From Puniceicoccales bacterium (GTDB lineage Bacteria > Verrucomicrobiota > Verrucomicrobiia > Opitutales > JAIRLG01), in contig JAITRB010000008.1 of NCBI GenBank assembly GCA_031288595.1, positions 1 to 32,000 on the forward strand: 32,000 nucleotides of DNA. Reading direction: 5' to 3'. The notes under the pieces are model-generated. The model made no database searches. It worked only from the letters and a program-made list of their open reading frames with translations, and had not been told where the DNA came from. Positions 2,663 to 31,934 of the stretch are shown piece by piece. Both the position numbers and the translations under genes were made by a program. The first letter of the stretch is position 1. The number at the start of each line of letters is the position of its first letter.

Positions 2663-2766
2663 TCGCCGCCTTTGGAGCCCAGAAGGGGCTCCGGCCCGCT
2701 GCGCGGGCCGCGAGAGAGGAAAATGAAAAAAGGTTTTTTCATTTTCCTCCCTCGCAAAGGCGGCGA
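2663..2766 (+). repeat. Cloverleaf-like structured intergenic repeat, copy 1 (+ strand reads arm-A-B-C-arm)
   Basis: Closing stem tcgccgcctttg (2663-2674) / caaaggcggcga (2755-2766). Hairpin A gagccc(2675-2680)/gggctc(2686-2691). Hairpin B ggcccgc-tgc-gcgggcc (2693-2709). Hairpin C 2712-2753 (gagagaggaaaatgaaaaaa / ttttttcattttcctccctc, one A.C mismatch). It lies between the dnaX stop and the glycosidase start. Strand convention for this family: + means the + strand reads A-B-C. Confidence 0.85.
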
Positions 2767-2775
2767 AGCGGAAGC

Positions 2776-4146
2776 CTAGGTATCGAACTTCAGCCGAAAG
2801 CGCTCGACGAGCTTCTGGCGCGTGGGGAGCGGGAGCTTGGCCAGCAGCTCAGAATCTAAGACCGGAGGGGAAATCCCCATTTCCGAATTCATTTTTCCCG
2901 ATGGAAGGGGAATCTTTTCCATTTCTCGGGAGGGTCGTTCCGGCAATGGGTCTCTCTCGGCGGAACTAGCGGGATGCATTTCCGGGAATGAAGAGATGGC
3001 CTCTTCTACCGGATGAGACGCTGGGGAGACATTTTCTTGCGAGCCGGCTCCGGAGAATACCCGCAAGCGGCGAAGCAAGTCATCCAGTCCTCTCATCTGG
3101 CAGGCTTCGATGGCCCGGAATAGGGCCATTTCGAAATTCACCTTTTCTGAAAGTCCAGAGCGTAGCTCTTCGCAGGACGAGGAAAGGCATTCCAAGACCT
3201 TGGCCAAGAGAGGGATGGATGGTTTTGGGAGAGAGCTTTGGGCCGAAGTGCTCTCCAGGAGCTGGGACTGCACCTGCTCACGCAGATCCAGGAGCAGCTT
3301 GGGAAAATCACAACCCCGAGCCTCCATCAAATCCGTCCAGTGCAGGATTTTTCGGTAATCCTCAGAGTAGATGCCCTGCAGAATTTCCTCCAATTCCTCC
3401 GTCGTGGCCAGGCCGTAGATCTCCAGCACATCTTTCCTGGAAATCGTCCCATCGCCGAAGCTCATCATCTGCTCCAGATAGGTCTGGGCATCCCTCAGGC
3501 TGCCGGCGGCGAGACGCGTCAGGGCCTCCAGGGCCGATGTTTCGACCGTTACATTTTCCTCCTCGGCAATCCGTTGCAATTTTTGGGCGATGAGGGTCGA
3601 TGGGAGCAGGTGGAACTCGAAGCGCTGGCAGCGCGAGGCGATGGTCACCGGAATTTTCGCCGCTTCCGTTGTCGCGAAGATGAACTTCACATGGGCCGGA
3701 GGCTCCTCCAGGGTTTTGAGCAGCGCGTTGAAGGCGGAGAGTGAAAGCATGTGAATCTCGTCCAGAATGTAGATTTTGTAACGACATTCGCCTGGTGTGT
3801 AGCGGCACTCCTCCCGCAGGGCGCGAATCTGCTCGACGGAATTGTTCGATGCCCCGTCGATTTCGATGACGTCGAGACAGTTACCCTCCAGAATGGCCCG
3901 TGTCAGGGGATCTTGCGGATCGGCCTGCAGCGAGGGCTCCGGCCGGGCATTGAGGGCCGCTGCCAGGAGGCGGGCCGTAGAGGTCTTGCCCGTCCCGCGT
4001 GGCCCGATAAAGAGAAAAGCATGGGCGATGCGCCGGCGCTCGATGGCCTGTGCCAGGGTTTTCACGATGTGCTCCTGGCCGACCAGTTCGGAGAAGCGCC
4101 TGGGTCTCCAGCGACGCGCGATGACCTGGTATTCGGATTCGGGCAT
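2776..4146 (-). CDS. dnaX: DNA polymerase III subunit gamma/tau
   Basis: MPESEYQVIARRWRPRRFSELVGQEHI..., Walker A GPRGTGKTS, DEIHML, and the clamp-loader SRC motif (TIASRCQRFEF). The track ORF (2776..4764) extends 200 codons upstream into the ABC-F gene, which is implausible. The ATG at 4146 is preceded by GGAGGAG with a 6-nt spacer. The ATG at 4161 (MEESIM...) is an alternative. Confidence 0.88.
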   Translation of the reverse strand: MPESEYQVIARRWRPRRFSELVGQEHIVKTLAQAIERRRIAHAFLFIGPRGTGKTSTARLLAAALNARPEPSLQADPQDPLTRAILEGNCLDVIEIDGASNNSVEQIRALREECRYTPGECRYKIYILDEIHMLSLSAFNALLKTLEEPPAHVKFIFATTEAAKIPVTIASRCQRFEFHLLPSTLIAQKLQRIAEEENVTVETSALEALTRLAAGSLRDAQTYLEQMMSFGDGTISRKDVLEIYGLATTEELEEILQGIYSEDYRKILHWTDLMEARGCDFPKLLLDLREQVQSQLLESTSAQSSLPKPSIPLLAKVLECLSSSCEELRSGLSEKVNFEMALFRAIEACQMRGLDDLLRRLRVFSGAGSQENVSPASHPVEEAISSFPEMHPASSAERDPLPERPSREMEKIPLPSGKMNSEMGISPPVLDSELLAKLPLPTRQKLVERFRLKFDT

Positions 4147-4183
4147 GATGGACTCCTCCATGGAAATCCACGGTGCCTTCGCT

Positions 4184-5986
4184 TCAAGATTTTTCCGAAT
4201 CCTCGATGGCATCGGCCATTGCCATCCACTGTGCCTCGAGCTTTGCCAAAAGCTCCTCCTGCTTATCCCATTCGGCCTGGGCCTGTGCTTCCCAGTTTTC
4301 CGCCAGTTGTCCCGAGAGCTCCAATTGCTTGGCCCGAAGCGATTCCATCTGCCGCTCCAGGTCTCCCAGTTCCTCGGCCGTATGGTGGCGGGACGGGCTT
4401 GTCGGCTTCGGGGAAGCGGAGGGAGATTTTTTCTGGAACAGGCTTTGGCGGTAGTCCTCCAAGTCCCCATCGTAGCGCCGGCACTGCCCGTGCTCGATGA
4501 GCCAGAGCTGCTCGCAGACCGCCTCCAATGTGAAGAAATCGTGGGCGACAAGGACGACCGCGCCGCTGTAGTCCTGCAAGGCCCGTATAAGCGCCTCCTT
4601 GGAATCGATGTCCAGGTGGTTCGTCGGCTCGTCCAGGAGTAGCAGATGCGGGGCATCCCGGGTGATGAGGGCCAGGAGCAGTCGCGTCTTCTCGCCACCC
4701 GAGAGCAATTCGATGCGGGTTTCCGCTCGCTCCTGAGTGAGGCCGAAGCGGGCGAGCTGGGCACGAATCTGCGCTTCGGAACAAGCGCTCAACACGGTGC
4801 CCATGGCTTCGACGGGAGTCTGTCGTAAAGGGAGGATTTCCGCGAGCTGCTGGGAGAAATAGGCCACCTTCAGTCCCTTCGCTCGTTCCCAGTGCCCCTC
4901 CTGCGGCTCCAGCTTGCCGGCCAGCAGTCGGGTCAAGGTGGACTTGCCCTGGCCATTCGCACCCAGCACGCCGATGCGGTCGCCCTGGTCGATGCGCAGC
5001 TCGAGATTTTCCAGGACAATCTCCGAGCCGTAGCCGACGCTGCCGCCCCGAAGTTTGAGCAGGACGCGGTCGATGGCGTTGGGCGAGGGGAAGGAAAATA
5101 CCGTCGCCACATCGGCTGCCGGTGGCGGGATGGCTTCCAGCCGCGCGAGCATTTTCAAGCGGCTCTGGGCCTGTTTGGCTTTAGAAGCCTTGTAGCGGAA
5201 GCGGTCGACGAAGGACTGGAGATGCTCGCGGCGCTTCTCCTGCTTCTCCCGCACCTTGCCCTGGGCAGCTCCCTGTGTTCGGCGAGTGAGCTCGAAGGTG
5301 TCGTAATTCCCGCTGTAAAATTTCATCTCTCCGCGATGGATGTGGAGGATGTGCGTGCAGAGGCGGTTGAGGAAATGGCGGTCATGACTGATGAGCAGGA
5401 GCGTCTGGCTCGCCTTGGCGAGATGATGCTCCAGCCATAGGGTAGTCTCGAGGTCCAGGTGATTGGTCGGCTCATCCAATAAGAGGAGTTCCGAGGGAGC
5501 GAAGAGGGTCGCGGCCAGGGCGACCCGCATCTGCCAACCACCGGAGAAGTTGGATAGGGGCTTGATGATCTCCTCCTGCGAGAAGCCGAGGCCATGCAGG
5601 ATTTCGGAGGCCCGGCTCTCGGCCCGATAACCGTCGATCATCTGGAGGCGGTCGCAGATTTCGGCAATTTTATCCGCATCTTCCTCCTCGTCCAGCGCCT
5701 TGGAAAGGGCTTTCCACTCCCCATCGGCCGAGAGGACGAAGTCGAGCAAGGCCTGGCTCTGGTCGCCGATTTCCTGCTCCACGCTCTGGACGCGCAGCTG
5801 CTTGGGACGGTCGATCCGGCCGGCGTCGAGCGGTAGCTCCCCCTTCAGCAGGCGAAAAAAAGTCGTCTTGCCGCAGCCGTTGTGGCCCACAACCCCAACT
5901 CTGGCCCCCTGTGGGATCGTGAACGTGGCATTCTCCCAGAGCGTCCGCTTCCCGATGGAATAGGCGATTTCCCGACAATTGATCAT
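4184..5986 (-). CDS. ABC-F family ATPase (two ABC domains, no TM domain, C-terminal coiled-coil tail; Uup/YheS-like)
   Basis: 600 aa. Two Walker A motifs (GHNGCGKTT, GANGQGKST), two signature motifs (LSGGWQMRVALA, LSGGEKTRLLLA) and two Walker B motifs (LLLLDEPTNHLD twice). The C-terminus is a charged helical region (ELGDLERQMESLRAKQLELSGQL...). GAGGG lies 5 nt upstream of the ATG. Confidence 0.9.
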   Translation of the reverse strand: MINCREIAYSIGKRTLWENATFTIPQGARVGVVGHNGCGKTTFFRLLKGELPLDAGRIDRPKQLRVQSVEQEIGDQSQALLDFVLSADGEWKALSKALDEEEDADKIAEICDRLQMIDGYRAESRASEILHGLGFSQEEIIKPLSNFSGGWQMRVALAATLFAPSELLLLDEPTNHLDLETTLWLEHHLAKASQTLLLISHDRHFLNRLCTHILHIHRGEMKFYSGNYDTFELTRRTQGAAQGKVREKQEKRREHLQSFVDRFRYKASKAKQAQSRLKMLARLEAIPPPAADVATVFSFPSPNAIDRVLLKLRGGSVGYGSEIVLENLELRIDQGDRIGVLGANGQGKSTLTRLLAGKLEPQEGHWERAKGLKVAYFSQQLAEILPLRQTPVEAMGTVLSACSEAQIRAQLARFGLTQERAETRIELLSGGEKTRLLLALITRDAPHLLLLDEPTNHLDIDSKEALIRALQDYSGAVVLVAHDFFTLEAVCEQLWLIEHGQCRRYDGDLEDYRQSLFQKKSPSASPKPTSPSRHHTAEELGDLERQMESLRAKQLELSGQLAENWEAQAQAEWDKQEELLAKLEAQWMAMADAIEDSEKS

Positions 5987-6104
5987 GGCGTCCCTCGACG
6001 ACAGCTCGAGAGCGTGAAATTAGGTCGCCAAGGCAAGAAAAATTTAAGAGGAGCTGCTTCATTCCTCAGGAAGCTGAGGAGCTGCTTCGTCATGAGCAGC
6101 TCCT
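5983..6104 (-). promoter_or_regulatory. Structured 5' leader of the ABC-F gene with a 36-codon uORF and SD/anti-SD repeats
   Basis: Minus-strand RNA reads AGGAGCUGCU (6104-6095), loop CAUGACGA (6094-6087), AGCAGCUCCU (6086-6077), a 10-bp stem. A second identical AGCAGCUCCU copy sits at 6058-6049. The palindrome cctcag-cttc-ctgagg (6079-6064) overlaps the first stem. A uORF starts at the ATG at 6093 (in the loop, AGGAG 6 nt upstream) and ends with a TGA at 5985-5983. That TGA overlaps the ABC-F ATG (ATGA). Confidence 0.3.
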
Positions 6105-6188
6105 GCTTTGGGTGGACTTAGTTCTTCTCATGAAAGTGCTGGTAGGCCCTCAAGAGCCGTTTCTGATCTTGGTATACTCTATAATAAT

Positions 6189-6216
6189 ATAATATATATT
6201 ATATACGGATCTTCAA
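6189..6216 (-). promoter_or_regulatory. Candidate sigma70-type promoter for the ABC-F leader
   Basis: On the minus strand: TTGAAG (6216-6211), a 16-nt spacer, then TATTAT (6194-6189). The -10 sits inside a 26-nt A/T-only tract (6180-6205) that holds several other TATAAT-like hexamers, so the exact -10 is ambiguous. Confidence 0.3.
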
Positions 6217-6323
6217 TTCTAAGTGTTTACGCCTGAAGTTTTTGCTGACGTGGGCAAAATTATCCATCGAGCTGCTGTGTATCGGCTGTATTTTGAACCT
6301 GGGCAATGCATCTCCCTGATTCA

Positions 6324-6864
6324 GATTGTGCTTAAAATGCTCACAGAAACACGCGTTTTAAAACTTTCATGCACAGGGGCTCGCCGCTCAAGTTGAGCTG
6401 CTAGGGATTCTTGGCGAGTAAGGAAGTTCCTTATTTCTTCACTGGCTCCGCCTTCCCCAAAGTCGCTTTCGAGAAAGGTTAACCAATCTATTTGAGGATT
6501 ATAGGCAAGAACGCTGGCTTTGGGGAAATATTCCGCCTTTTGAGAGCCCTGAATTTGCCCATCGAAGAACCTACGAAGAGTAGCCGTTCTTCATTTTAAT
6601 TGAGCGTCTCTTGCGCGAGCAAGTTCTAGGAGAAAAGGATAAAAAACACAAGACCAGTGGTGACCAGTGCCTGCACAGCGATAAAAGCTCTATATGAATT
6701 GTATCCATACCCTACATCCTTTCTTTAAGACCCTATTATTAACTTTCCCAAAGTCCAAAAAATGATCGCGCAGGAAACCCGCGAGATCATCAATGTTCTC
6801 AGAATTTCAGCTCATTTACATATCTCTTTTCCCTATCAGTCTTTCCAATTTTCATCAAAGTCAT
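6324..6864 (-). pseudogene. Apparent decayed gene of unknown family (frameshift plus two in-frame stops)
   Basis: One minus-strand frame is open from 6806 to 6324 (161 codons) except for an in-frame TAG (6692-6690) and TGA (6593-6591). The longest stop-free piece (6590-6324, 89 codons: RTATLRRFFDGQIQGSQKAEYFPKASVLAYNPQIDWLTFLESDFGEGGASEEIRNFLTRQESLAAQLERRAPVHESFKTRVSVSILSTI) has no ATG/TTG start and only a late GTG. A 21-codon ATG ORF (6864-6799, MTLMKIGKTDREKRYVNELKF) abuts it in a shifted frame. A tandem duplication gaccagtgGT/gaccagtgCC lies at 6652-6671. I recognise no family. Confidence 0.35.
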
Positions 6865-6954
6865 TTCGCTAAGATTAGGTATGCCTATCTTCTGAGACAA
6901 ATCGGTTGCGGCGGCAAGAGCTGCTGCTAACAGACTATCTAGTCAACTTAATTT

Positions 6955-7713: not shown

Positions 7714-7918
7714 GCGCTGCCGCTGCGCCTAGGGCGATTCTCCCCAAGGGACCCCAGACCACTCGGCCAGAGACCTTATGTAAAGTCCGGGAGCCATTTG
7801 GAGCTAGAAAACAAGCCTATGCCTCGATGATTCTCCAGAAGACGGCGGCGCCCAGCTTCCTGCCCTCCTGCAGCATCGTCTAGAGCCGAGAATCGGTGGA
7901 AATGGGCCTAGAGGATCC

Positions 7919-8020
7919 CTAATTCCCCCACTCGCGCTTCTTGTGGCGATTCGCGCGCAGGCGCTTGCTGCGCTTGTGCTTGTTCATCTTCAGGCGGCGC
8001 TTCTTCTTGAGATTCCCCAT
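7919..8020 (-). CDS. bS22-type (AURKAIP1/COX24-like) small basic ribosomal protein, 33 aa
   Basis: Not in the ORF track because it is under 60 aa. Hand translation gives [33 protein letters not shown]. It has the same 33-aa length, MG start and K/R pattern as mycobacterial bS22 ([33 protein letters not shown], recalled from memory). No obvious SD. Confidence 0.65.
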
Positions 8021-8131
8021 GATTTCTGTGGCTCGGGTCACTGGAGCAGCATCGACCCGATGGGCGGGATTACAAGGGCTTCGGTGTTGGAAGTAAAGCT
8101 TTTTCCCATCGCTGAAAAAGATGCTCCGGCC

Positions 8132-9475
8132 CTAGAACTCATCCGCACCGCTGACCCGAGCGACCTGAACCCTGTAGCGCCAGCGCAGAATAAGGATCCG
8201 GATAAACTGATTCAGAAGGCCGAACTTCAGGATGATGACGGCGTGGGGGTGTGCCTTGTGCAGGAGAAAGTAGGAGGGAATGATCAGAAAGAAGAAATGG
8301 CTGCCGACGTTGACGCTCGTCAGGAAGGGCGTGTCCTTAAAAGCCGTCAAACTGTAGTGCAGTTGGTACCAAATCCCTTCCAGAAACGCGAGCAGGGAGG
8401 CCCAGGGCAGCATCTGTCGGAAGAAGGAGAAGATTTCCGTCTGCCCGTTCCCCATGAAGAAGCCGACGAATTCGCGGCAGAAGACCCAAATCAGAATGAG
8501 GAGAGACCCGTGCAGGAGGAAGCACAGCCGTACGGCCGCGGAGAGCGTGGCCCGAAGGGTTGCCGTTTCCTGTTTTTCTCCTAGAAAGTTGGCGATGAGA
8601 ACGCAATTCCCCTTGCCCAGGCTATCGCTGAGTGAGGACAGGATGCGTTGGAGGGAGAAGATGATGCCCATGGCGGAGAATTCGCTGAATGGGATACGGT
8701 CCGCAATGACCTGAATGATCCAGCACCAAGCGATCCCATTGATCAGAGTATTCAAGGAGGACGGCAGGCCGAAACGGGCATATCTCCAGCAGATTTTTGG
8801 AGAAAAGGCCGTGCAATCCGTGTGGAAGTTCTCGCGATTGTACCTGGAAAGAAAGATCGGGAGTACGAGCAATAAGCTGCAGACCTGGGCGACCAACGTC
8901 GCCAGCGCACAGCCCATCAATCCGCATTCGGGAAAACCGGCCTTCCCGAAGACGAGGGCAAGGGTCAGGAGGAGGTTGAGGCTGTGGCTGAAGATGAAGA
9001 GCAGTGGCATCGCATAGCTTATTTTCCTCCCCGTGAAGAAGGACCCGATGGCACCGAAGGTCGCGCAGTGGAAGGGCATCGAGAGAAAATATATCCGGAG
9101 ATAGGGAACCCCTTCGGTCAGAAGGTTTGCCGCGAGCAGATAGGGGACCGCTTGCCACAGGAGGGGGATGACCAGAAGGCCGATGCCCAGGGAGAGCCAG
9201 AGCATCTGCCAGACCGCTGGCCCGATTTGAGCGAACTGTTTCCTCCCGTTGTGGTGCCCGACGAAGACGCTTATGATGAAGATGAGGTTCAGGAGAGTGG
9301 ATTGCAATACCTCGTGCCACACGATGGTTCCGATGTGCGTATTGAACGCCATTGGTGAGTAGTGGGCCAGAACACAGCGCCCCGTCAGACTCAAGAGGCA
9401 GGTACTAGAAGAGGCCAGAATCAGTGGCCAGCTCAACGACCAGAGCTGTCGGGATACCTTTCTGTCAGAGGCCAT
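8132..9475 (-). CDS. MATE-family (MOP superfamily) efflux transporter
   Basis: 447 aa with about 12 hydrophobic segments. N-terminal LWSLSWPLILASSS, mid GLMGCALATLVAQ and IANFLGEKQ resemble the MATE consensus (P.i...l / G..GaalAt / vgq.lGa). GC is visibly lower than in neighbouring core genes. Confidence 0.72.
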   Translation of the reverse strand: MASDRKVSRQLWSLSWPLILASSSTCLLSLTGRCVLAHYSPMAFNTHIGTIVWHEVLQSTLLNLIFIISVFVGHHNGRKQFAQIGPAVWQMLWLSLGIGLLVIPLLWQAVPYLLAANLLTEGVPYLRIYFLSMPFHCATFGAIGSFFTGRKISYAMPLLFIFSHSLNLLLTLALVFGKAGFPECGLMGCALATLVAQVCSLLLVLPIFLSRYNRENFHTDCTAFSPKICWRYARFGLPSSLNTLINGIAWCWIIQVIADRIPFSEFSAMGIIFSLQRILSSLSDSLGKGNCVLIANFLGEKQETATLRATLSAAVRLCFLLHGSLLILIWVFCREFVGFFMGNGQTEIFSFFRQMLPWASLLAFLEGIWYQLHYSLTAFKDTPFLTSVNVGSHFFFLIIPSYFLLHKAHPHAVIILKFGLLNQFIRILILRWRYRVQVARVSGADEF

Positions 9476-13612: not shown

Positions 13613-13693
13613 GCTGTCTTTGCCCCATGAAAATGTCGATTTTCATGGGGCAGCTCGCGGCGCGAGCGGATTCCTCCGGAATCCAAAGACAGC
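13613..13693 (-). repeat. Cloverleaf-like structured intergenic repeat, copy 2 (+ strand reads arm-C-B-A-arm)
   Basis: Closing stem gctgtctttg (13613-13622) / caaagacagc (13684-13693). Hairpin C ccccatgaaaat-gtcg-attttcatgggg (13623-13650). Hairpin B gctcgc-ggc-gcgagc (13653-13667). Hairpin A ggattcc-tcc-ggaatcc (13668-13684). It lies between acpS and the thiamine pyrophosphokinase gene. Confidence 0.88.
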
Positions 13694-14442: not shown

Positions 14443-14544
14443 GGGGCCGCCTTTGCACCGGAGAGGGAAGGGAAAATTTTCCCTTCCCCCTCCGGTGACG
14501 CCCGCGTAGCGGGCGGGAGCCCGAAGGGCTCCAAAGGCGGCCCC
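14443..14544 (-). repeat. Cloverleaf-like structured intergenic repeat, copy 3 (+ strand reads arm-C-B-A-arm)
   Basis: Closing stem ggggccgcctttg (14443-14455) / caaaggcggcccc (14532-14544). Hairpin C 14456-14497 (caccggagagggaagggaaaa/ttttcccttccccctccggtg, one A.C mismatch). Hairpin B cgcccgc-gta-gcgggcg (14499-14515). Hairpin A ggagccc-gaa-gggctcc (14516-14532). Confidence 0.88.
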
Positions 14545-19035: not shown

Positions 19036-19134
19036 GGGGCTGTCTTTGGCTCCCTTCGGGAGCGTCCGCGCAGCGGACAACGGCGCAGGACATGAAAACA
19101 GCGTTTTCATGTCCTGCGCCGCAAAGACAGCCCC
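19036..19134 (+). repeat. Cloverleaf-like structured intergenic repeat, copy 4 (+ strand reads arm-A-B-C-arm)
   Basis: Closing stem ggggctgtctttg (19036-19048) / caaagacagcccc (19122-19134). Hairpin A gctccc-ttc-gggagc (19049-19063). Hairpin B gtccgc-gca-gcggac (19064-19078). Hairpin C cggcgcaggacatgaaaac-agc-gttttcatgtcctgcgccg (19081-19121, 19-bp perfect stem). It lies in the convergent spacer between the pseudopilin gene and PFOR. Confidence 0.9.
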
Positions 19135-22740: not shown

Positions 22741-23039
22741 GATTTTTCAGCCTTCCAGAGGGAGCCGATACCCGCCATGAAGCGATTTTGTCCCCATCGG
22801 TCAAGGGAATGAAATCGGGTCCTTCTTTTGTCCCTTTTAAGTGGGGAGCTTCCCGATAACTTGAAGCGGCTGAGCGAGCCGTTGCGATTCGAAGTTGGGA
22901 GATGGGAGTTACCCGGCCTATGGGCGGCTCTGATGGAGCTCATGGAGCTGCCCAGCGTGTGCGCAGTACCTGCCGGAGAGCAAAGGGGGAGCTGGCGCCA
23001 TCCGTAGCTTTCTATTGGCAGGACCTGGGTGTGTCCGGT

Positions 23040-23136
23040 CATCGCCTTTGCGTTCCCTGCAAGAAAAGGGGACTTTTGCTTGCAGGGAACGCCGCCTGCA
23101 TCGCAGGCACGAGCCCGAAGGGCTCAAAAGGCGATG
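23040..23136 (-). repeat. Cloverleaf-like structured intergenic repeat, copy 5 (+ strand reads arm-C-B-A-arm)
   Basis: Closing stem catcgcctttg (23040-23050) / caaa(a)ggcgatg (23125-23136, 1-nt bulge). Hairpin C 23051-23091 (cgttccctgcaag..aaaa-ggggac-tttt.g.cttgcagggaacg). Hairpin B gcctgc-atc-gcaggc (23094-23108). Hairpin A gagccc-gaa-gggctc (23111-23125). It lies between the tsf stop and the PFOR start. Confidence 0.85.
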
Positions 23137-23347: not shown

Positions 23348-23938
23348 CTATTCACCTAATTGGTAGCGGACAAAGCGGCCGATGCGGATGTTTTCGCCGA
23401 TGCGGGCCACGACGGAGGCTAGGTGCTCCTCAAGGCGAATGTCCTGATTGCGCGCGAAGGGCTGTTCGAGGAGGCAAACCTGGCTAAGCCACTTGTCTAT
23501 CTTGCCCTCCACGATTTTTTCGACGACGGCTTGCGGCTTGCCGGCCACCTGGGCGTTGGCGATTTCCCTCTCCTGATCGATGACGGGCTGAGGAACGGAG
23601 TCACGGGAAAGGTAAAGCGGATTCGAGGCCGCGATGTGCAGGCAGATGTCCGCTGCCAGCTCCCGGAAATCCTCATTCCTCGCGACGAAGTCCGTCTCGC
23701 AGTTCAGCTCCAGGAGAACACCGATCCGTCCGCCGTTATGGACGTAGGACTCGATGATGCCGGCATGTGTTTCCCGACCGGCCTTTTTTGCAGCCGTTGC
23801 GGAGCCCTTTTTCCGGAGCAGGATGATGGCCTCTTCGATGCTGCCCTCGGCTTCGCCCAGCGCCTTTTTGCAGTCGACGAACCCAGCTCCACTGCGCCGT
23901 CTCAATTCATTCACCTTCGCTGCTGTGATCTCTGACAT
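23348..23938 (-). CDS. tsf: Translation elongation factor Ts (short form)
   Basis: MSEITAAKVNELRRRSGAGFVDCKKALGEAEGSIEEAIILLRKKG is the canonical EF-Ts UBA-like N-terminus. It sits immediately downstream of rpsB, the conserved rpsB-tsf pair. Confidence 0.92.
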   Translation of the reverse strand: MSEITAAKVNELRRRSGAGFVDCKKALGEAEGSIEEAIILLRKKGSATAAKKAGRETHAGIIESYVHNGGRIGVLLELNCETDFVARNEDFRELAADICLHIAASNPLYLSRDSVPQPVIDQEREIANAQVAGKPQAVVEKIVEGKIDKWLSQVCLLEQPFARNQDIRLEEHLASVVARIGENIRIGRFVRYQLGE

Positions 23939-23957
23939 CTCAATGCTCCTCCTCGAT

Positions 23958-24746
23958 TTAAATGTCCGCCTCTCCCTCGATTTTCACCGCATCCGCTGCG
24001 TCGGAAACGATGGCTTCTCTGCTTGGAATTGTCTTCAACTGTCGGGATTCCCTCTTTTTTGCCTCGAAGAGCGCCTGCCCTCGTTCGATGGCCTCGACCA
24101 AGCAGGACAGGAGCAGCTGGATCGAGCGGGCCAAATCGTCGTTGGCGGGGATAGGATAGGTCACGAGCTCTGGATTCGAATTCGTGTCGACCAGCGCCAC
24201 GACGGGAATGCCCAGGCGCCTTGCCTCGGCGACGGCGATGCTCTCCTTGTAGATGTCGACGACCAATAGGGTGGATGGCAATTGGGTCACCTCGACGAGG
24301 CCCTCGAAGCTGCGGAAGAGGCGGGCCATTTGGCGGCGGATAACTGAGGCTTCCTTTTTCAACATGGCGTCGAGGGAGCCGTCCTCCTGCATCCGGAGAT
24401 AGTGGCGGTACTTGTTGAGGCTGCGATGAACGGTTTCGAAATTTGTCAGGCAACCGCCGAGCCAACGGTTGGGCACGAAGGGCATGTGAACCGAGCGGGC
24501 GGACTCGCGAACCGCCTCCTGGGCCTGTGCCTTGGTGCCGACAAACCAGATGCTCTGACCGCTGGAGGCGGTTTTTTCGAGAAAATCGCATGCCTTTTGC
24601 AATTGCCCCAAGGTCTTTTCCAGGTCGATGATGGAAAGGCCGCCGAGGCAGCCGTAGACGAATTTCTGGGACTTCGGGTTCCAGCGACGCCGCTGATGGC
24701 CGAGGTGTACTCCTGCCTCGAAGAGGTCCTGTATTGTCACGTTCAT
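23958..24746 (-). CDS. rpsB: 30S ribosomal protein S2
   Basis: MNVTIQDLFEAGVHLGHQRRRWNPKSQKFVYG is the canonical uS2 N-terminus. 262 aa. Confidence 0.95.
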   Translation of the reverse strand: MNVTIQDLFEAGVHLGHQRRRWNPKSQKFVYGCLGGLSIIDLEKTLGQLQKACDFLEKTASSGQSIWFVGTKAQAQEAVRESARSVHMPFVPNRWLGGCLTNFETVHRSLNKYRHYLRMQEDGSLDAMLKKEASVIRRQMARLFRSFEGLVEVTQLPSTLLVVDIYKESIAVAEARRLGIPVVALVDTNSNPELVTYPIPANDDLARSIQLLLSCLVEAIERGQALFEAKKRESRQLKTIPSREAIVSDAADAVKIEGEADI

Positions 24747-24897
24747 AGATACTCCGTACCCTCGCGGGCCTTGGATGGAAACATGGGTTGAAGGTTGAGG
24801 CTCTCTTCATGAGGGGAGAAGTTCCCTTGGCAAGTTCTTTCTTGACAGAGGATTGTTCGAGGAGGGGTTGGGTAGAAAGGTGGCTGGGAGGTCAGTC

Positions 24898-24992
24898 GGC
24901 TGTCTTTGCAGAGCAGGGTATGAAAACAGCGTTTTCATGCCCTGCTCTGTCGTCCGCTGCGCGGACGCTCCCGAAGGGAGCCAAAGACGGCC
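24898..24992 (-). repeat. Cloverleaf-like structured intergenic repeat, copy 6 (+ strand reads arm-C-B-A-arm)
   Basis: Closing stem ggctgtctttg (24898-24908) / caaagacggcc (24982-24992, one T.G pair). Hairpin C cagagcagggtatgaaaac-agc-gttttcatgccctgctctg (24909-24949, one T.G pair). Hairpin B gtccgc-tgc-gcggac (24952-24966). Hairpin A gctccc-gaa-gggagc (24967-24981). It is an inverted near-twin of copy 4. Confidence 0.9.
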
Positions 24993-27618: not shown

Positions 27619-27680
27619 GGTGCAGATCTCTCTGATGTCATCCGATGGATGAGGCGAGGAGCTATTCCAATCCTTTCGCC

Positions 27681-28913
27681 CTAGGATGAGGGATGCTTAA
27701 CGGGGATCTGCTTCAGGTAATTGGCGAAGGGCAAGCCCTCCTCATCCCTCAGCTCGGGATTACCCTGGATGAGAGGCAGGGCATACCTTGAAAAAATAGG
27801 CTGGACGTGGCAGGCATCTTCCTCCAACCAGTTGAGGGGAAATGCTTTTTCCGACTGGATGACATTCGACAGGTCCGTGAGGTCGTACTTCACGCCGTAG
27901 GAATTCCCCTCTTCCCGCAGGAGTGTCAGCATCTGTCCCGAATGCCCCTCGATGGCCCACCGTACCGCCTGGCGACCTCCGCCAAAGGCCTCTGTCAGGT
28001 CCGTCTGGGAGGCCCAGTGGGCCGCTGCTCCCTGGGTCGCGCCCAACGAGATGACGCGGACGGGCACATTGAGCTCGGCGTTGATCATGGCCTTCAGGAG
28101 GCTGCCTGCGCCGGCCATCGCCGCAGGAAAATCCGCCTTTGAAATGATGGAATTTCCCTCGGCATCGACGATGCCCTCGGCGACGACGAGGAGGCAGTGA
28201 TTCAAGGACTGCAGGACGGTCTGGACGTCATTGAGCAGCTGCTCCTTGGAAAAGGCCACCTCCGGCAGATAGAGGATGTGAGGAGCATCCTCCGGATGAT
28301 TCGCTCTCTTGGCCAAAGAGGCGCCGGCGGCCAACCAACCCGTGTGCCGTCCCGCGACCTCGACCACCGACACGAGGTGGGGAAGTCCAGAGGAGAGTCC
28401 GTCCATGGCCACTTCCCGCACCGTCGTGGCGATGTACTTCAATGCACTTCCGTAGCCCGGGCAATGATCGGTCACGGCGAGATCGTTGTCAATGCTCTGG
28501 GGAAGCCCCATCGTCTGCAGCGGCCAGGCCTGTTCCTGGGCATAGCTGTGGAGGCGGAAGAGTTCTTCCTGCGCCGAGCGGTCACCGATGCTGAAGAAAT
28601 AGCGGATGTGATGATTTTTTAAAACTTCTAAAATGCGCGGAAAATCCTCCGCCTTCGAGGGACTGCGCGGCCCGAGGCCGAGGGCCGCACCGGCCCTCGT
28701 CTTCAGGGCCCGAATATTCTGCTGCGATTCGGCGGCCAGGTCGATGAAATGCCCCCCCAAAATTCCAGAAAATCCCCGCAATCCACCGTAAATTTCCCCG
28801 ATGCATTCGTGGTCTAGGGCCTCGGCGATGATACCGCTGAGACTCGCATTGCTCGCACAGGAAGCACTGCCGGACTGTATCACCAATAAATTGCCGCTCG
28901 CCATCGTTTCCAT
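27681..28913 (-). CDS. Phosphofructokinase-family protein with degenerate catalytic motifs (function uncertain)
   Basis: It aligns by eye to E. coli PfkA motifs: SIDNDL (TIDND kept), VVEVAGRHTGW (MGR becomes AGR), LPEVAFS (PEVEFS kept). Other motifs are degenerate: QSGSASCASNAS for SGGDAPGMNA, FSIGDRSA for IGGDGS, and LGATQGAAAH for LGHIQRGG. The start was chosen at the ATG at 28913 (METMASGNLLVIQSG), preceded by a purine-rich GAGAGAAG. 28976 and 28904 are alternatives. Confidence 0.75.
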   Translation of the reverse strand: METMASGNLLVIQSGSASCASNASLSGIIAEALDHECIGEIYGGLRGFSGILGGHFIDLAAESQQNIRALKTRAGAALGLGPRSPSKAEDFPRILEVLKNHHIRYFFSIGDRSAQEELFRLHSYAQEQAWPLQTMGLPQSIDNDLAVTDHCPGYGSALKYIATTVREVAMDGLSSGLPHLVSVVEVAGRHTGWLAAGASLAKRANHPEDAPHILYLPEVAFSKEQLLNDVQTVLQSLNHCLLVVAEGIVDAEGNSIISKADFPAAMAGAGSLLKAMINAELNVPVRVISLGATQGAAAHWASQTDLTEAFGGGRQAVRWAIEGHSGQMLTLLREEGNSYGVKYDLTDLSNVIQSEKAFPLNWLEEDACHVQPIFSRYALPLIQGNPELRDEEGLPFANYLKQIPVKHPSS

Positions 28914-29068
28914 ACGCTTCTCTCTTTGTAGATTTTCTGTAAGGGGAAAGCTGCTCTTTTTGGGAGGTGAAAGCAATCTAAAAACGGTCAGAGGGCCTTC
29001 GGGGTCTGTGAAAATTTCTCAGCGATTTCTGTTTGAAAATTTTTTACGGACTGCTAGATAAAAATTCC

Positions 29069-29692
29069 ATGAGAGGAGAGGAATCTGGAGACCAAAGCCC
29101 GAAGGGCGTATCGGGGATGGACGCTGACTTCCGGGATGCATCGCGGAAATCCGCAGCTCCTACGGCGGAGGAGCTGGGCGCTGCGGCCGAGGGGATGGGC
29201 TCCCAAGGAATGCCTGTTTCTCCGGAGGAGAGGAAGTACCTGGCCGCCTATGTCCAGCTACAGGCTGATTTCGAGAATTTCAAAAAGCGGGCCGCACGGG
29301 AGCGGGAGGAATGGCTCAAGCTTTCCAATCGCCGGCTCATCGAGGAACTGCTGACCATCGTCGACCATCTCGACCTCGCCCTGCAGTCGGCCAAACCCGA
29401 AGATGAGAAGGGACAGCAGATCACCCAGGGCTTCGCGATGATCGTCGGGCAGTTTAAAAAGCTACTGGCCGAGCAGGGTTTGGTCGAAGTGGGGAAGGTC
29501 GGAGAGCCCTTCAACCCCAGAGATCACGAAGCGGTGGGTCAGAGCACCCATCCGACGGTCCCCATCGACCATATCTGCCAGCTCGTCCGGCCGGGCTATC
29601 GACTCCACGACTTCACCTTACGCCCCGCCTCGGTCATCGTATCCCATGGCCCAGAAAGGGAAAACAAGCCGAAGGAGGAAGTCCTCTCATGA
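29069..29692 (+). CDS. grpE: Nucleotide exchange factor GrpE
   Basis: [21 protein letters not shown] and the C-terminal [12 protein letters not shown]...[17 protein letters not shown] are GrpE hallmarks. The start is uncertain (29033, 29069 or 29117 in frame). The stop overlaps the dnaJ ATG (ATGA). Confidence 0.85.
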
Positions 29693-30855
29693 GTGCAGCC
29701 GAGGATTATTACGGGCTCCTGGGGGTATCCAAAACGGCGACGGAGGACGAGATCAAGAAGGCCTATCGGAAGATGGCCGTCAAATACCATCCGGATAAGA
29801 ACCCGGGCGACAAGAATGCCGAGGAGAAGTTCAAGAAGATCTCAGCGGCCTATGAGGTACTCCATGACCCATCCAAACGCGCGGCCTATGACCGTTACGG
29901 AGCGGCGGCCTTCGATCCCCAGTCAGGTGGCATGGGCGGAGCGACCCGAGGAGGATTTCAGGGAAGCTTTCACCAGGAATTCGGAGGATTCTCCAATCCT
30001 TTTGATATTTTCCGCGAGGTCTTCGGCGGGGGCATCGGCGAGTTCTTCGGCGGCGGCCGTTCCCACCGCAGTGGCTCCCGCTCCTCATCCGGAGCTGACC
30101 TGCGCTACGACCTGGAAATCACGCTCCTGGAGGCCTTTCGTGGGGTCGAGAAGACCCTAAGTTACCACCGCCATGTGGCTTGTACCCATTGCCATGGCAG
30201 TGGGGCGGAGAAGGGCTCTTCGCGTACTACCTGCGCGACCTGTCGAGGTTCGGGCTGTGTCACGACCTCCCAGGGCTACATGACGATTCAGCAGAGCTGC
30301 CCGCGCTGCCAGGGTCAGGGAGTGGTGATCGAAAAGCCCTGTCCGCACTGCTACGGCGAGGGAAGGGTCGTGGAGTCGACGACGACGAAGGTTCGGGTAC
30401 CGGCCGGGATCGATTCCGGCATGCAGCTGCGCCTAGCAGGCTTCGGCGAGGTTGGGGAGCAGGGTGGGACTGCGGGCCATCTCTATGTGCGGGTAGAGCT
30501 AAAGGAGGACAAGCATTTCGAACGCCATGGAAATGACCTGCACTGCCGCGTGTCTCTGCCCTTTTCTTTACTGGTTCTCGGCGGCGAGACGAATATCGAT
30601 ACCATCGACGGCCAGGCGATTTTGAAAATTCCGGCCGGCACGCAGGCCGAGAGCGTCCTGCGCGTCCGTGGGCAGGGAATGCCCATTCTCGAGCAGGGCG
30701 GTGCTCGGGGAGACCAGCTCGTCCACGTCGCCGTCGAGGTGCCGAAGAAATTGACCCATGAGCAGCGGGAAAAGCTAGAGGCCTTCGCCCAGGCCTGCAG
30801 CTCCTCTTCTAAAAGTAGCTTCTTCGACCGCCTCCGCGGCAGCTTCGGCCTCTGA
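29689..30855 (+). CDS. dnaJ: Molecular chaperone DnaJ (type I)
   Basis: J domain with HPD (DYYGLLGV...[10 protein letters not shown]), a G/F-rich linker, and four CxxCxGxG zinc-finger repeats ([32 protein letters not shown]). Confidence 0.95.
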
Positions 30856-30912
30856 GACCGGGTTAGGGGAGAGATCCTGCTCCATGGGAGATCTTGCTTC
30901 TTTCAAGGGGGC

Positions 30913-31006
30913 GCTGTCTTTGGATTCCGGAGGAATCAGCCCGCTGCGCGGGCTCCAAGGGGAGAAAAAGGAAAAACTTTCCTTTTTCTCCCCTTGCAAA
31001 GACAGC
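30913..31006 (+). repeat. Cloverleaf-like structured intergenic repeat, copy 7 (+ strand reads arm-A-B-C-arm)
   Basis: Closing stem gctgtctttg (30913-30922) / caaagacagc (30997-31006). Hairpin A gattcc-gga-ggaatc (30923-30937). Hairpin B agcccgc-tgc-gcgggct (30938-30954). Hairpin C caaggggagaaaaaggaaa-aac-tttcctttttctccccttg (30956-30996). It lies in the convergent spacer between dnaJ and the TPR-like gene and is followed by A7. Confidence 0.9.
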
Positions 31007-31046
31007 AAAAAAATAGCCCTAGAGATACTTTTCCCCCGAGAAAGAC

Positions 31047-31739
31047 TCAGGCCATCGCCGGCAGGACGAGTTGCTTCTGAACGGCTGCCGCGAGTTCGCG
31101 AATTTCCCCTAGGGTTTCACCCATAGATTCCGTTTCTTTTCCGAGATCGAGGTAGCTCTGTTCCGCTTCATTCAGAAGAGACAGCGCGCGCTCGAAGTGC
31201 TGCGCATCCCTGTGACATTCGGCCGCAGATAGCAACAAAATTGGATTTTTGGGAAAGAGATTGATGAGGAAGTCGTAGATTTTTGCAGCGGCCCCGATAT
31301 CCTCGTTAGCCAGATCCTCCGCCAACATCACGTAGGCATAGAGATTGGGCTGTCCGTCGTTGGAAAAAAGGGACAGCCATTGGAACAGCTTTCCCGATAG
31401 CTCCGCCTTTCCCTGCTGCAGCAGGGCCTCTGCTTCCTGCTCCAGAGCGGACACCTCTTCCTCGGAAAGGGACTGAAGCGCGGCCTCTATTCCTTCCCTT
31501 TCGAGAACCTGGAAAATCTTAAGGCCGATGCTTTGGAATTCCTCCTGCCGCAGAAGGTGCTGCCAGGCATCCCGATAGGCGCGTTGCGACTGTTCCAGGG
31601 CCCTTTGCAGAGCCGGCTCTTCCTTTTCCGGAAGGGGGATTCTCCGCAGCATAGCCTCGATCCCAACCCCAAAGGCCTCCATTAGCTCCTCCCAGTTCGC
31701 CTCCCCATCGTGCCCAGGTTCCCCTTTTTCCCTATCCAT
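31047..31739 (-). CDS. TPR-like helical-repeat protein (weak resemblance to LcrH/SycD-type chaperones)
   Basis: The start is taken at the ATG at 31739 (MDREKGEPGHDGE...), giving 230 aa. The track start at 31937 would translate straight through repeat copy 8. The C-terminal half has TPR-like A/L/Y spacing. NPILLLSAAECHRDAQHFERALSLL resembles the PRFPFHAAECLLQ segment of SycD/PcrH (recalled from memory). Confidence 0.5.
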   Translation of the reverse strand: MDREKGEPGHDGEANWEELMEAFGVGIEAMLRRIPLPEKEEPALQRALEQSQRAYRDAWQHLLRQEEFQSIGLKIFQVLEREGIEAALQSLSEEEVSALEQEAEALLQQGKAELSGKLFQWLSLFSNDGQPNLYAYVMLAEDLANEDIGAAAKIYDFLINLFPKNPILLLSAAECHRDAQHFERALSLLNEAEQSYLDLGKETESMGETLGEIRELAAAVQKQLVLPAMA

Positions 31740-31750
31740 AACGGAGATGG

Positions 31751-31779
31751 ATTCTAGAAAAAATGTTCGTTCTTGGCAA
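31751..31779 (-). promoter_or_regulatory. Candidate sigma70 promoter giving a near-leaderless transcript for the TPR-like gene
   Basis: On the minus strand: TTGCCA (31779-31774), a 17-nt spacer, then TAGAAT (31756-31751). The -10 ends 11 nt before the ATG at 31739, implying a 5' UTR of only a few nt. No SD is present. Confidence 0.4.
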
Positions 31780-31844
31780 AGTAAAAATGGAGAGATGCGT
31801 CGGGGTCGATGGGACAGGAGAAATAGAGAGGGATAAGGGAAGCT

Positions 31845-31934
31845 TTCCCGCTGTCTTGGAATCCCTTTGGGATTCGCCCGCTTCGCGGGCCGCAGGGAGG
31901 CCGCTCCGCGGCCTCCCTGCCAAGACAGCGGGAA
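31845..31934 (+). repeat. Cloverleaf-like structured intergenic repeat, copy 8 (+ strand reads arm-A-B-C-arm)
   Basis: Closing stem ttcccgctgtcttgg (31845-31859) / ccaagacagcgggaa (31920-31934), 15 bp. Hairpin A aatccc-ttt-gggatt (31860-31874). Hairpin B gcccgc-ttc-gcgggc (31876-31890). Hairpin C gcagggaggccgc-tcc-gcggcctccctgc (31892-31920). This is the only copy whose hairpin C is entirely GC-rich. Confidence 0.88.

What the first reader, a model, noticed from the sequence alone, without database searches (positions are those of the whole stretch)
2663..31934. Dense family of intergenic elements with a conserved cloverleaf-like four-way-junction fold and pervasive compensatory variation
Eight elements of 81-104 bp share one architecture. 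They lie at 2663-2766, 13613-13693, 14443-14544, 19036-19134, 23040-23136, 24898-24992, 30913-31006 and 31845-31934.

Architecture:
- A 10-15 bp closing stem built on GC(Y)G(Y)CTTTG ... CAAAG(R)C(R)GC encloses three hairpins in a fixed order.
- Hairpin A has a 6-7 bp stem and a 3-5 nt loop. Variants are gagccc/gggctc, gctccc/gggagc, gattcc/ggaatc and aatccc/gggatt.
- Hairpin B has a 6-7 bp GC stem and a 3-nt loop, around gcccgc-NNN-gcgggc.
- Hairpin C has a 12-21 bp stem, usually with an AT-rich tip such as catgaaaa/ttttcatg.

The sequences of the closing stem, A and C differ between copies, but both halves change together. For example, gctgtctttg/caaagacagc becomes gccgcctttg/caaaggcggc or atcgcctttg/caaaggcgat. 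The fold is therefore conserved, not the sequence.

The copies occupy about 2.4% of the window, roughly one per 4 kb. All sit in intergenic spacers and none interrupts a recognisable gene. Both orientations occur (4 and 4 on the + strand). No target-site duplication is visible.

Many loops are GNA/TNC triloops (gaa, gca, gta), and GNA triloops are known to form very stable DNA mini-hairpins. The few mismatches do not consistently favour one strand: T.G pairs lie on the + strand in copy 6, while A.C mismatches lie on the + strand in copies 1 and 3. I therefore cannot say whether an RNA or single-stranded/cruciform DNA is the selected form.

I do not recognise the family as REP/BIME, ERIC, BOX, Correia/NEMIS, a CRISPR repeat, a tRNA or a known riboswitch.
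Basis: seen in the sequence. Interest (0 to 1): 0.88.

Follow-up and report, generated by a model that had tools for sequence, protein, structure and literature searches.

The report
Cloverleaf palindromic DNA repeats, REP-like
The window, from an uncultured termite-gut Verrucomicrobium (Puniceicoccales), carries eight copies of a previously undescribed ~100-bp nested-palindrome repeat that folds into a four-armed cloverleaf on either strand; it behaves like the REP/REPIN-type "junk-or-domesticated" repeats of other bacteria rather than like a new RNA gene.

Summary
All eight elements fold, on either strand and with RNA or DNA parameters, into a closing stem plus three hairpins (z -8.5 to -13). 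A covariance model finds exactly these eight in the window.

The family is absent from Rfam, tRNA scans, plasmid and phage collections. I found it only in a small clade of termite-gut Puniceicoccales genomes, at about one copy per 4 kb.

Across 45 copies, 97% of stem positions are Watson-Crick and 34 of 36 pairs show changes on both sides. Copies at the same site in a sister species show fully compensated double substitutions in hairpin C.

The evidence points to a DNA-level palindrome, not a strand-specific RNA:
- G.T and A.C mismatches are equal (23 vs 22).
- G.U intermediates are almost absent.
- Hairpin tips occur flipped inside otherwise co-oriented copies.
- One copy has lost hairpin C.
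- Orientation relative to genes is mixed.
- Neighbouring copies are inverted in 8 of 9 cases.

There is no target-site duplication. Sites and orientations persist between species whose housekeeping proteins are only 72-88% identical.

Best reading: a new, unusually shaped REP/BIME/REPIN-like repeat family sitting at operon ends. The mobilising or binding protein and any RNA-level role are not identified.

The parts
2663..2766 (+). Element e1. It reads A-B-C on the + strand. P1 is TTCGCCGCCTTTG/CAAAGGCGGCGAA; A is GAGCCC..GGGCTC; B is GGCCCGC-TGC-GCGGGCC; C is a 22-bp stem. It lies 9 nt downstream of the dnaX stop, between two minus-strand genes.
   Evidence: Folds. Covariance-model hit of 95.5 bits. 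Gene context.
13613..13693 (-). Element e2. It reads A-B-C on the - strand and is the shortest copy (C stem 14 bp). It lies between acpS and the thiamin pyrophosphokinase gene. The same spacer is empty in relatives L002 and L241.
   Evidence: 73.3 bits. Empty sites.
14443..14544 (-). Element e3, between the thiamin pyrophosphokinase gene and tyrS. Copies lie at the same site and in the same orientation in L239 (TyrRS 85% identical) and L002 (74%). The site is empty in L241 and L001.
   Evidence: (100.4 bits).
19036..19134 (+). Element e4, in the convergent spacer between a pilin-operon gene and the PFOR gene. A copy at the same site in L242 has identical P1, A and B stems. Its hairpin C differs by 3 compensated double substitutions. 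The site is also filled in L243 and empty in L240.
   Evidence: (94.1 bits).
23040..23136 (-). Element e5, between tsf and the PFOR gene. A copy at the same site in L242 has 3 compensated double substitutions in hairpin C. A copy lacking hairpin C lies after tsf in L274.
   Evidence: (84.7 bits).
24898..24992 (-). Element e6, 38 nt downstream of the leuS stop and upstream of rpsB. It belongs to the same subfamily as e4. The site is filled, in the same orientation, in L274 (LeuRS 74% identical), but by a different subfamily.
   Evidence: (76.1 bits).
30913..31006 (+). Element e7, in the convergent spacer after dnaJ. The site is filled, in the same orientation, in L274.
   Evidence: (84.7 bits).
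31845..31934 (+). Element e8, a variant with CTTGG/CCAAG at the junction and a GC-rich 13-bp hairpin C. It lies upstream of a TPR-protein gene on the minus strand and beyond a promoter-like site at 31779-31751.
   Evidence: (78.9 bits).

Best explanation
The elements are a lineage-specific family of interspersed nested palindromes. They are selected and maintained as DNA, and are comparable in kind to REP/BIME/REPIN repeats. They are carried by a small clade of termite-gut Puniceicoccales.

**What is shown.**
- Each copy is a perfect four-way junction on either strand.
- The inner closing stem, with CTTTG/CAAAG at the junction, and the two short GC hairpins A and B with TNC/GNA triloops are conserved in sequence.
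- Hairpin C is a variable arm that only has to stay a hairpin.
- Copies sit in spacers between transcription units, in both orientations.
- Copies often occur as inverted neighbours.
- Copies lack target-site duplications.
- Copies keep their site and orientation across deep species divergence.

**What is inferred.**
- The conserved P1+A+B module is the recognition site for a trans-acting protein that binds or mobilises the folded single strand or cruciform. Candidates are a RAYT/HUH-type or a junction-specific enzyme. None was identified.
- The arms of hairpin C are kept complementary by selection for hairpin formation together with DNA-level arm-to-arm templating. That templating would be template switching at quasi-palindromes or repair within the hairpin. 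It also explains the flipped tips, symmetric indels and the loss of C.
- Because the copies lie in 3' untranslated regions and the fold is strand-symmetric, they probably also act as transcript-end hairpins (stabiliser or terminator) in whichever orientation they are transcribed.
For: **Fold and family.** The fold and its significance are. The covariance model finds 8 of 8 copies in the window and 45 in about 150 kb of clade loci. It finds 0 in 732 kb of decoy loci from other taxa, 0 in 261 kb of viral decoys, and 0 in 23.5 kb of a relative with 62% PFOR identity.

**Pairing.** 97.2% of stem cells are Watson-Crick paired and 34 of 36 pairs vary on both sides. There are 321 two-sided cells against about 20 one-sided (G.U) cells.

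**No strand asymmetry.** There are 1695 Watson-Crick pairs, 23 G.T, 22 A.C and 7 other mismatches. Relative to local transcription in the window, 2 mismatches would be G.U and 4 would be A.C.

**DNA-type rearrangements.**
- The tip of hairpin C occurs as ATGAAAGCTCCCGCTTTGCAT or as its reverse complement in co-oriented copies.
- The hairpin A loop occurs as TTC or GAA.
- One copy lacks hairpin C (L274:9731-9791).

**Constraint.** Window and L242 elements are 88% and 82% identical. PFOR 4-fold sites are 74.7% identical, and flanks are 43-56% identical against 48% for shuffles. P1, A and B of e4 are unchanged. Each hairpin C has 3 compensated double substitutions, half of them of transversion type.

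**Persistence and turnover.**
- Site and orientation are kept in 8 of 8 same-site comparisons, including 5 at 72-74% protein identity.
- Empty sites exist in other relatives.
- No target-site duplication.
- Neighbours sharing a spacer are inverted in 8 of 9 cases.

**Sequence similarity among copies.** One subtype of 15 copies averages 86% identity. The window copies average 59%.

**Precedent.** REPINs have conserved ends, a variable hairpin spacer with common compensatory changes, and long vertical persistence (PMC3116915; bioRxiv 10.1101/2021.07.10.451892, abstract listed). Template switching can create and maintain perfect hairpins (PMC8794818).
Against: - No partner enzyme was found. The neighbouring genes are all housekeeping. 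A tblastn with RAYT and IS608 TnpA sequences recalled from memory gave nothing below E=0.4 in 186 kb. This is a weak negative, because whole genomes could not be searched.
- No direct evidence of mobility was obtained, such as a filled and an empty site with alignable flanks.
- The asymmetric three-hairpin interior is unlike any REP or REPIN.
- Occupation of the same operon-end sites across deep divergence, together with the lack of canonical terminators (23 found against 21.7 expected), is equally what a host-beneficial RNA or terminator element would show.
- At three shared sites the distant relative carries a different subfamily. Common descent at those sites therefore rests mainly on orientation (5 of 5, p about 0.03).
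Restriction to this clade is therefore not proven.
Confidence: 0.6

Rival explanations
1. The primary selected form is RNA. The element is a cis-acting transcript-end structure: a factor-independent or bidirectional terminator, or a 3'-exonuclease block. It works in either orientation because both strands give the same four-way fold. Multiplication as DNA is secondary.
For: - 7 of 8 window copies lie downstream of a stop codon, 6 of them within about 60 nt (e5 is 212 nt from tsf). Both convergent spacers are filled and neither divergent spacer is.
- The sites after leuS, tsf, dnaJ, the PFOR gene and the TPK gene are occupied in species with only 72-88% protein identity.
- Canonical hairpin-plus-T-run terminators are not above chance.
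- RNA folds are very stable.
- The elements are more conserved than their flanks.
Against: - There is no wobble signature. G.T and A.C counts are 23 and 22, only about 1% of cells are one-sided changes, and A.C outnumbers G.U on the transcribed strand in the window.
- No T-run follows any hairpin.
- Flipped loops and tips, and a copy lacking hairpin C, are tolerated.
- Two or three copies can share one spacer, and two copies lie in a divergent spacer in L243.
- A purely structural RNA role does not explain the sequence conservation of P1, A and B.
Confidence: 0.25
2. It is a conventional MITE. The closing stem is a terminal inverted repeat recognised by a DDE transposase of an autonomous IS in the same genomes, and the internal hairpins are incidental.
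For: - The size (81-120 bp), the 10-15-bp terminal inverted repeat and the intergenic, multi-copy distribution fit.
- IS5-like elements and their MITE derivatives occur in the same genomes.
Against: - No target-site duplication in 0 of 46 copies.
- The IS5-like terminal repeat (GGTGTCGTCAAAA) is unrelated to P1, and that IS has in one case inserted beside a broken copy.
- The outer P1 varies with compensation.
- Sites persist across deep divergence and internal stems are conserved far above flanks, unlike decaying MITEs.
Confidence: 0.08
3. They are independent small RNA genes (tRNA-like or regulatory sRNAs), or known recombination sites such as integron attC.
For: The shape is cloverleaf-like. 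Structure is conserved while sequence varies, as in attC sites.
Against: - No tRNA or tmRNA and no Rfam match, even at E<=10.
- No unpaired conserved core, and both strands fold equally.
- No integrase or cassette array. The neighbours are housekeeping genes in both orientations.
- No GTTRRRY core sites.
Confidence: 0.03

Closest known systems
REPINs / REP-RAYT systems (Pseudomonas, enterobacteria)
   Same: - Short extragenic palindromic repeats at high copy number.
- Fold as single-stranded DNA hairpins.
- Conserved end modules with a variable hairpin spacer, in which compensatory changes are common (PMC3116915).
- No target-site duplication.
- Long vertical persistence at fixed sites (bioRxiv 10.1101/2021.07.10.451892, abstract listed).
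- Inverted arrangement of neighbouring units.
   Different: - A REPIN is two inverted copies of one REP forming a single long hairpin. Here the interior is asymmetric, with three different hairpins in a fixed order A-B-C that form a four-way junction.
- No RAYT gene was found in the DNA available.
- The host phylum (Verrucomicrobiota) and the sequences are unrelated.
BIMEs (bacterial interspersed mosaic elements) of E. coli
   Same: - Mosaic of several short GC-rich palindromic units between genes, at the ends of transcription units.
- Neighbouring units alternate in orientation.
- From established knowledge, BIMEs have roles in mRNA 3'-end stabilisation, attenuation, and binding of gyrase and IHF.
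   Different: - BIME units are not enclosed by a common closing stem and do not form a single junctioned fold.
- There is no sequence similarity.
Structured bacterial MITEs (Correia/NEMIS, ERIC, bcr1, RPE; reviewed in PMC3184786)
   Same: About 100-150-bp intergenic repeats with terminal inverted repeats and stable predicted folds. Some are co-transcribed and affect mRNA stability (from established knowledge).
   Different: Those elements have target-site duplications and/or recognisable parent IS ends, and they fold as one long imperfect hairpin. Here there is no duplication, no parent IS, near-perfect Watson-Crick stems and a four-way junction.
Quasi-palindrome template-switch mutagenesis (PMC7202029; PMC8794818)
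   Same: It is a mechanism, not a family. It copies one arm of an inverted repeat onto the other. This would give instant 'compensated' changes of any type, symmetric indels and loop inversions, as seen in hairpin C.
   Different: It explains how perfect pairing is maintained. It does not explain why the family exists or spreads. It was not demonstrated here.

Membership tests
REP/REPIN-RAYT | Short extragenic palindromic repeat present in many copies, in both orientations | tested here: met
   8 copies in 32 kb, and about 1 per 4 kb in loci chosen by gene rather than by element. All copies are intergenic. Orientation is 4 + and 4 -.
REP/REPIN-RAYT | The unit is two inverted copies of the same REP, separated by a spacer, forming one long hairpin | tested here: not met
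   The interior is asymmetric. Hairpins A, B and C differ from each other and always occur in the same order, forming a four-way junction.
REP/REPIN-RAYT | Conserved ends and a variable hairpin-forming spacer with compensatory changes | tested here: met
   P1, A and B are conserved. Hairpin C is variable but 95.5% paired, and all 11 of its modelled pairs vary on both sides. Same-site copies show compensated substitutions.
REP/REPIN-RAYT | A single-copy RAYT (Y1 HUH transposase) gene flanked by the repeats | tested here: inconclusive
   No HUH-like hit in 186 kb of clade DNA, using query sequences recalled from memory. Pfam on neighbouring genes shows only housekeeping functions.
REP/REPIN-RAYT | Long-term vertical persistence at orthologous positions | tested here: met
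   The e3-e7 sites are filled in the same orientation in relatives with 72-88% protein identity, in 8 of 8 comparisons.
MITE | Terminal inverted repeats | tested here: met
   P1 has 7-18 perfect bp.
MITE | Target-site duplication flanking the element | tested here: not met
   0 of 46 copies have a 2-, 3- or 5-nt duplication and 1 of 46 has a 4-nt one.
MITE | Ends match those of an autonomous IS in the same genome | tested here: not met
   The only IS seen is IS5-like (DUF4096 + DDE_Tnp_1). Its ends are GGTGTCGTCAAAA, unrelated to P1. Only partial genomes were examined.
Any Rfam RNA family / tRNA | Match to a curated covariance model, or to the tRNA cloverleaf with conserved D/T loops | tested here: not met
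   0 matches at gathering score. At E<=10 only two chance-level matches overlap elements, to eukaryotic miRNA and CyVA-1 models, at 19-22 bits against thresholds of 41-87. ARAGORN finds 0 genes.
Intrinsic terminator | GC-rich hairpin immediately followed by a T/U run | tested here: not met
   No element has such a tail. Terminator-like sites in the window number 23 against 21.7 expected.
Integron attC | R''/R' core sites (RYYYAAC/GTTRRRY), cassette array, adjacent intI | tested here: not met
   No such cores in the sequences. The neighbours are housekeeping genes in both orientations and no integron integrase is present in the window.

The most novel reading that the evidence does not exclude
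The elements are a new class of vertically inherited, domesticated DNA elements. Their single-stranded or cruciform four-way junction, which mimics a Holliday junction and has a conserved TTT|G at the crossover, would be the substrate of a so-far unrecognised junction-specific recombinase, nuclease or binding protein. That system would mark nearly every operon boundary in these symbiont genomes, for example as topological or termination insulators. Hairpin C would be kept perfect by an active arm-copying mechanism.
Probability: 0.18. Interest if true: 0.75.

Novelty: new variant of a known kind. Interest (0 to 1): 0.5.

Why it matters
- It adds a structurally distinct member to the poorly understood REP/REPIN/MITE world: a junctioned cloverleaf instead of a simple hairpin. 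The host is a phylum and habitat (Verrucomicrobiota of termite guts) where no such repeats have been described.
- The family offers an unusually clean natural example of hairpin arms evolving by perfectly compensated changes, flips and symmetric indels without any RNA-type wobble signature. This bears on how much 'covariation' can arise from DNA-level processes rather than from selection on RNA structure. It is a caveat for RNA-motif discovery pipelines.
- Practically, the repeats break metagenome assemblies of this clade, because contigs end inside copies. The covariance model could serve as a clade marker.

Tried and rejected
- **Rfam and tRNA.** Rfam at gathering score and at E<=10, and ARAGORN, gave nothing relevant.
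- **Plasmids and phages.** blastn of e4 against both collections gave no match.
- **Collection scans.** The metagenome scan returned only chance inverted repeats. The genome scan gave true members only in three Puniceicoccales MAGs. Two viral-contig scans returned 29 chance matches and 0 covariance-model hits.
- **Source contig.** Looking up the window's own contig by exact protein failed three times. The remaining ~20 kb of the 52.8-kb contig could not be read.
- **Gene calling.** A crude ORF-based gene caller for context statistics was abandoned as unreliable at this GC content. Contexts were taken from Pfam-supported genes and supplied gene calls instead.
- **IS5 hypothesis.** The idea that the elements derive from the IS5-like element seen in relatives was rejected, because its terminal repeats are unrelated.
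- **In-gene insertion.** The idea that copies in L058 are in-frame inserts in genes, like RPEs, was rejected. Pfam domains start well downstream of the copies, so the long ORFs are N-terminal over-extensions.
- **HUH transposase search.** tblastn with remembered RAYT and IS608 TnpA sequences gave no hit. This is a weak test.
- **Literature.** Searches for this family found nothing.

Full report
**1. What is there**

- With RNA parameters, each folds on both strands into a closing stem (P1) around three hairpins. MFE is -51 to -90 kcal/mol, z -8.5 to -13.1, and no shuffle folds as well.
- DNA parameters give the same structures.
- Reading A-B-C, the orientations are e1 +, e2 -, e3 -, e4 +, e5 -, e6 -, e7 +, e8 +.
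- The junction is nearly perfect, with 0-2 unpaired bases between arms.
- The P1 pattern is not expected by chance: 0.00 matches in shuffles.
- Nearly all the strongest inverted repeats of the window lie inside these elements.
- A covariance model (R1, built from 38 copies) recovers exactly these eight in the window and nothing else.
- The eight copies are only 59% identical to one another on average.

**2. Host and context**

The genes of the window are housekeeping genes. They include a pullulanase-like gene, dnaX, an ABC-F gene, kdsB, fabD, ruvC, acpS, a thiamin pyrophosphokinase gene, tyrS, an LtaS-like sulfatase gene, pseudopilin genes, the PFOR gene, tsf, leuS, pfk, grpE and dnaJ.

Their closest relatives are MAGs named Puniceicoccales bacterium (Verrucomicrobiota). 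The window lies on a 52.8-kb contig that is also deposited at NCBI.

The elements lie between transcription units.
- Both convergent spacers are filled (e4, e7).
- Neither divergent spacer is filled.
- Five copies are between co-directional genes, mostly 9-60 nt after a stop codon.
- Relative to the local mRNA, three copies are antisense and two are sense.
- Canonical hairpin-plus-T-run terminators are not enriched: 23 found against 21.7 expected.

**3. Distribution**

- Rfam (gathering score and E<=10) and ARAGORN give nothing.
- Plasmid and phage collections give no blastn match.
Only loci from three termite-gut Puniceicoccales MAGs (Ct408_bin121, Pcl387_bin38, Pcl387_bin136) contained true three-hairpin elements.
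- The model finds 0 hits in 732 kb of the other 100 loci and 0 in 261 kb of viral decoys.
- Loci fetched through orthologous proteins, not through the element, show copies in relatives down to about 70-74% protein identity: L002, L001, L242, L243, L274.
- No copies appear in L244 (62% PFOR identity, 23.5 kb), L240 or L241.
- In these gene-selected loci plus the window, density is about one copy per 4 kb. L058 holds eight copies in 8 kb.
- Several contigs of relatives begin or end inside a copy: L239, L071 and L058.

**4. Covariation**

On the model-guided alignment of 45 copies (A6):
- 97.2% of stem cells are standard pairs, against 76.5% in column shuffles and 37-52% with slid partners.
- 34 of 36 pairs change on both sides.
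- There are 321 two-sided cells but only about 20 one-sided (G.U-type) cells.

Two caveats apply. The alignment is fitted to the structure, and copies fall into subfamilies. For example, GCTGTC closing stems go with GATTCC, GATCCC or GCTCCC hairpin A, and GCCGCC goes with GAGCCC. So cells are not independent events.

Independent support comes from copies at the same site in the sister organism of sample 3300042618, whose PFOR is 87.5% identical.
- For e4, the P1, A and B stems are identical. For e5 they differ only by a 1-nt indel in P1 and one uncompensated change in B.
- Hairpin C of e4 and of e5 each carries three fully compensated double substitutions, half of them of transversion type, plus one or two uncompensated changes.
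- Loops change freely.
- The elements are 88% and 82% identical. PFOR 4-fold degenerate sites are 74.7% identical. The flanking spacer is 43-56% identical, the level of shuffled sequence (48%).

**5. RNA or DNA?**

Several observations argue that the conserved object is the DNA palindrome rather than one transcribed strand.
- (a) Over 40 copies there are 1695 Watson-Crick pairs, 23 G.T on the A-B-C strand, 22 A.C (which are G.T on the other strand) and 7 other mismatches. A functional RNA strand should tolerate G.U and purge A.C.
- (b) Relative to the mRNA strand in the window, the mismatches are 2 G.U and 4 A.C.
- (c) In otherwise co-oriented copies, the tip of hairpin C occurs as ATGAAAGCTCCCGCTTTGCAT or as its exact reverse complement (L001, L084:807, L098:2662, L073). 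The loop of hairpin A occurs as TTC or GAA. These are inversions between the arms of an inverted repeat.
- (d) Between same-site copies a stem can gain one base pair symmetrically: hairpin A in L239 compared with e3.
- (e) L274:9731-9791 is a copy that has lost hairpin C entirely.
- (f) Orientation relative to genes is mixed. Two or three copies can share a spacer. Neighbours within a spacer are mutually inverted in 8 of 9 cases (coordinates).

One strand-linked feature does exist. The triloops of A and B are TNC in the A-B-C reading and GNA on the other strand in about 60% of copies.

**6. Mobility and persistence**

- There is no target-site duplication.
- P1 has no similarity to the ends of the only IS seen in the clade, an IS5-like element. 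In L243 that IS sits against a broken copy.
- Evidence for spread is indirect. A subtype of 15 copies at unrelated loci is 86% identical. Sites filled in the window are empty in some relatives: the e2 site in L002 and L241, the e3 site in L241 and L001, and the e4 site in L240.
- Conversely, the e3, e4, e5, e6 and e7 sites are filled in the same relative orientation in all eight comparisons, five of them at 72-74% protein identity.
- At the e4, e6 and e7 sites the distant relative carries its own dominant subtype rather than the window's subtype. This suggests either within-genome homogenisation (gene conversion) of resident copies or repeated insertion into the same permissive spacers. The orientation agreement (5 of 5, p about 0.03) favours homogenisation.

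**7. Interpretation**

The combination of features is that of REP/BIME/REPIN-type repeats:
- extragenic position and high copy number;
- a strand-symmetric perfect palindrome;
- conserved end modules and a variable hairpin arm with compensated changes;
- inverted neighbours and no duplication;
- long vertical persistence.

For REPINs, a variable spacer that must form a hairpin, with common compensatory changes, is already documented (PMC3116915), as is persistence over millions of years (abstracts).

The differences are real. The interior is asymmetric (three different hairpins in a fixed order), the fold is a four-way junction, and no RAYT was found. The RAYT test is weak, because only 186 kb of clade DNA was available and the queries were recalled from memory.

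I therefore file it as working like a REP/REPIN family. I do not file it as a member of that family.

The perfect pairing of hairpin C is best explained by selection for hairpin formation combined with arm-to-arm templating. That means quasi-palindrome template switching (PMC7202029) and the demonstration that template switching can create and maintain hairpins (PMC8794818). This step is inferred, not shown.

A secondary RNA-level role as transcript-end hairpins is plausible from position. It cannot be excluded as the primary role (rival, 0.25).

**8. Verdict**

- The family is new and clade-restricted as far as the searches reach.
- The kind of element is known and the architecture is a new variant.
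- Interest is moderate (0.5).

The main open points are the partner protein, direct evidence of mobility, and whether the host uses the elements at operon ends.

Noticed in passing
window 5987-6954: An ORF-poor island of about 970 bp with 42-46% GC in a 58-63% GC context, between the ABC-F gene and kdsB. It has no ORF of 60 aa or more, no Rfam match and no copy of the element. It may be a decayed foreign gene or an unannotated non-coding locus.
   Followed up: partly
window 22771-22819 (minus strand), upstream of the PFOR gene: A block of about 45 nt (CGATTTCATTCCCTTGACCGATGGGGACAAAATCGCTTCATGG) is almost identical in the 88% relative L242, while the rest of the 600-nt spacer is unalignable. 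It is probably the PFOR promoter or leader. It contains a TTGACC hexamer.
   Followed up: no
L058:3509-3594: A different 86-bp perfect four-way palindrome: closing stem TCCGGCGATCC/GGATCGCCGGA with three unrelated hairpins. It lies directly beside two copies of the family, giving three junctioned elements within 400 bp. It may be a second family of the same architectural type.
   Followed up: no
Ct408_bin121, Pcl387_bin136 and J42596 loci, e.g. L065:150-191, L073, L243:7650-7698 (alignment A7): The dominant subtype in these genomes carries a conserved, non-palindromic extension on the A side (..GCCATTTTNGAGCACCGTCTCCG, then 8-12 nt, then GGCG) just outside P1. The repeated unit there is therefore longer and asymmetric. 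The window copies lack it.
   Followed up: partly
L243:66-911 and 8961-9106; L082:1298-1345 and 1540-1566; L274:12731-13579: An IS5-like IS (DUF4096 + DDE_Tnp_1, ends GGTGTCGTCAAAA, CTAG target) and a 146-bp MITE derivative occur in the relatives. In L243 the IS abuts a half-copy of the element (CGCAAAGGCGGTAAACC at 912-928). In three Ct408 loci an element with identical flanks sits between two such IS/MITE ends.
   Followed up: partly
L274:9731-9791: A 61-bp copy after tsf keeps P1, A and B but has lost hairpin C.
   Followed up: yes
L239:1-84, L071:1-81, L058:7953-8000: Metagenome and MAG contigs of this clade repeatedly start or stop inside a copy. The repeats therefore fragment assemblies, and the sequence at such ends is unreliable (for example, the hairpin C of L239 is imperfect).
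   Followed up: no
window 23911-24810 vs 23958-24746 (minus strand): The longest ORF upstream of tsf (299 aa) has no Pfam hit, although relatives annotate ribosomal protein S2 there. The overlapping 262-aa ORF in another frame is probably the real rpsB. This illustrates spurious long ORFs at this GC content.
   Followed up: no
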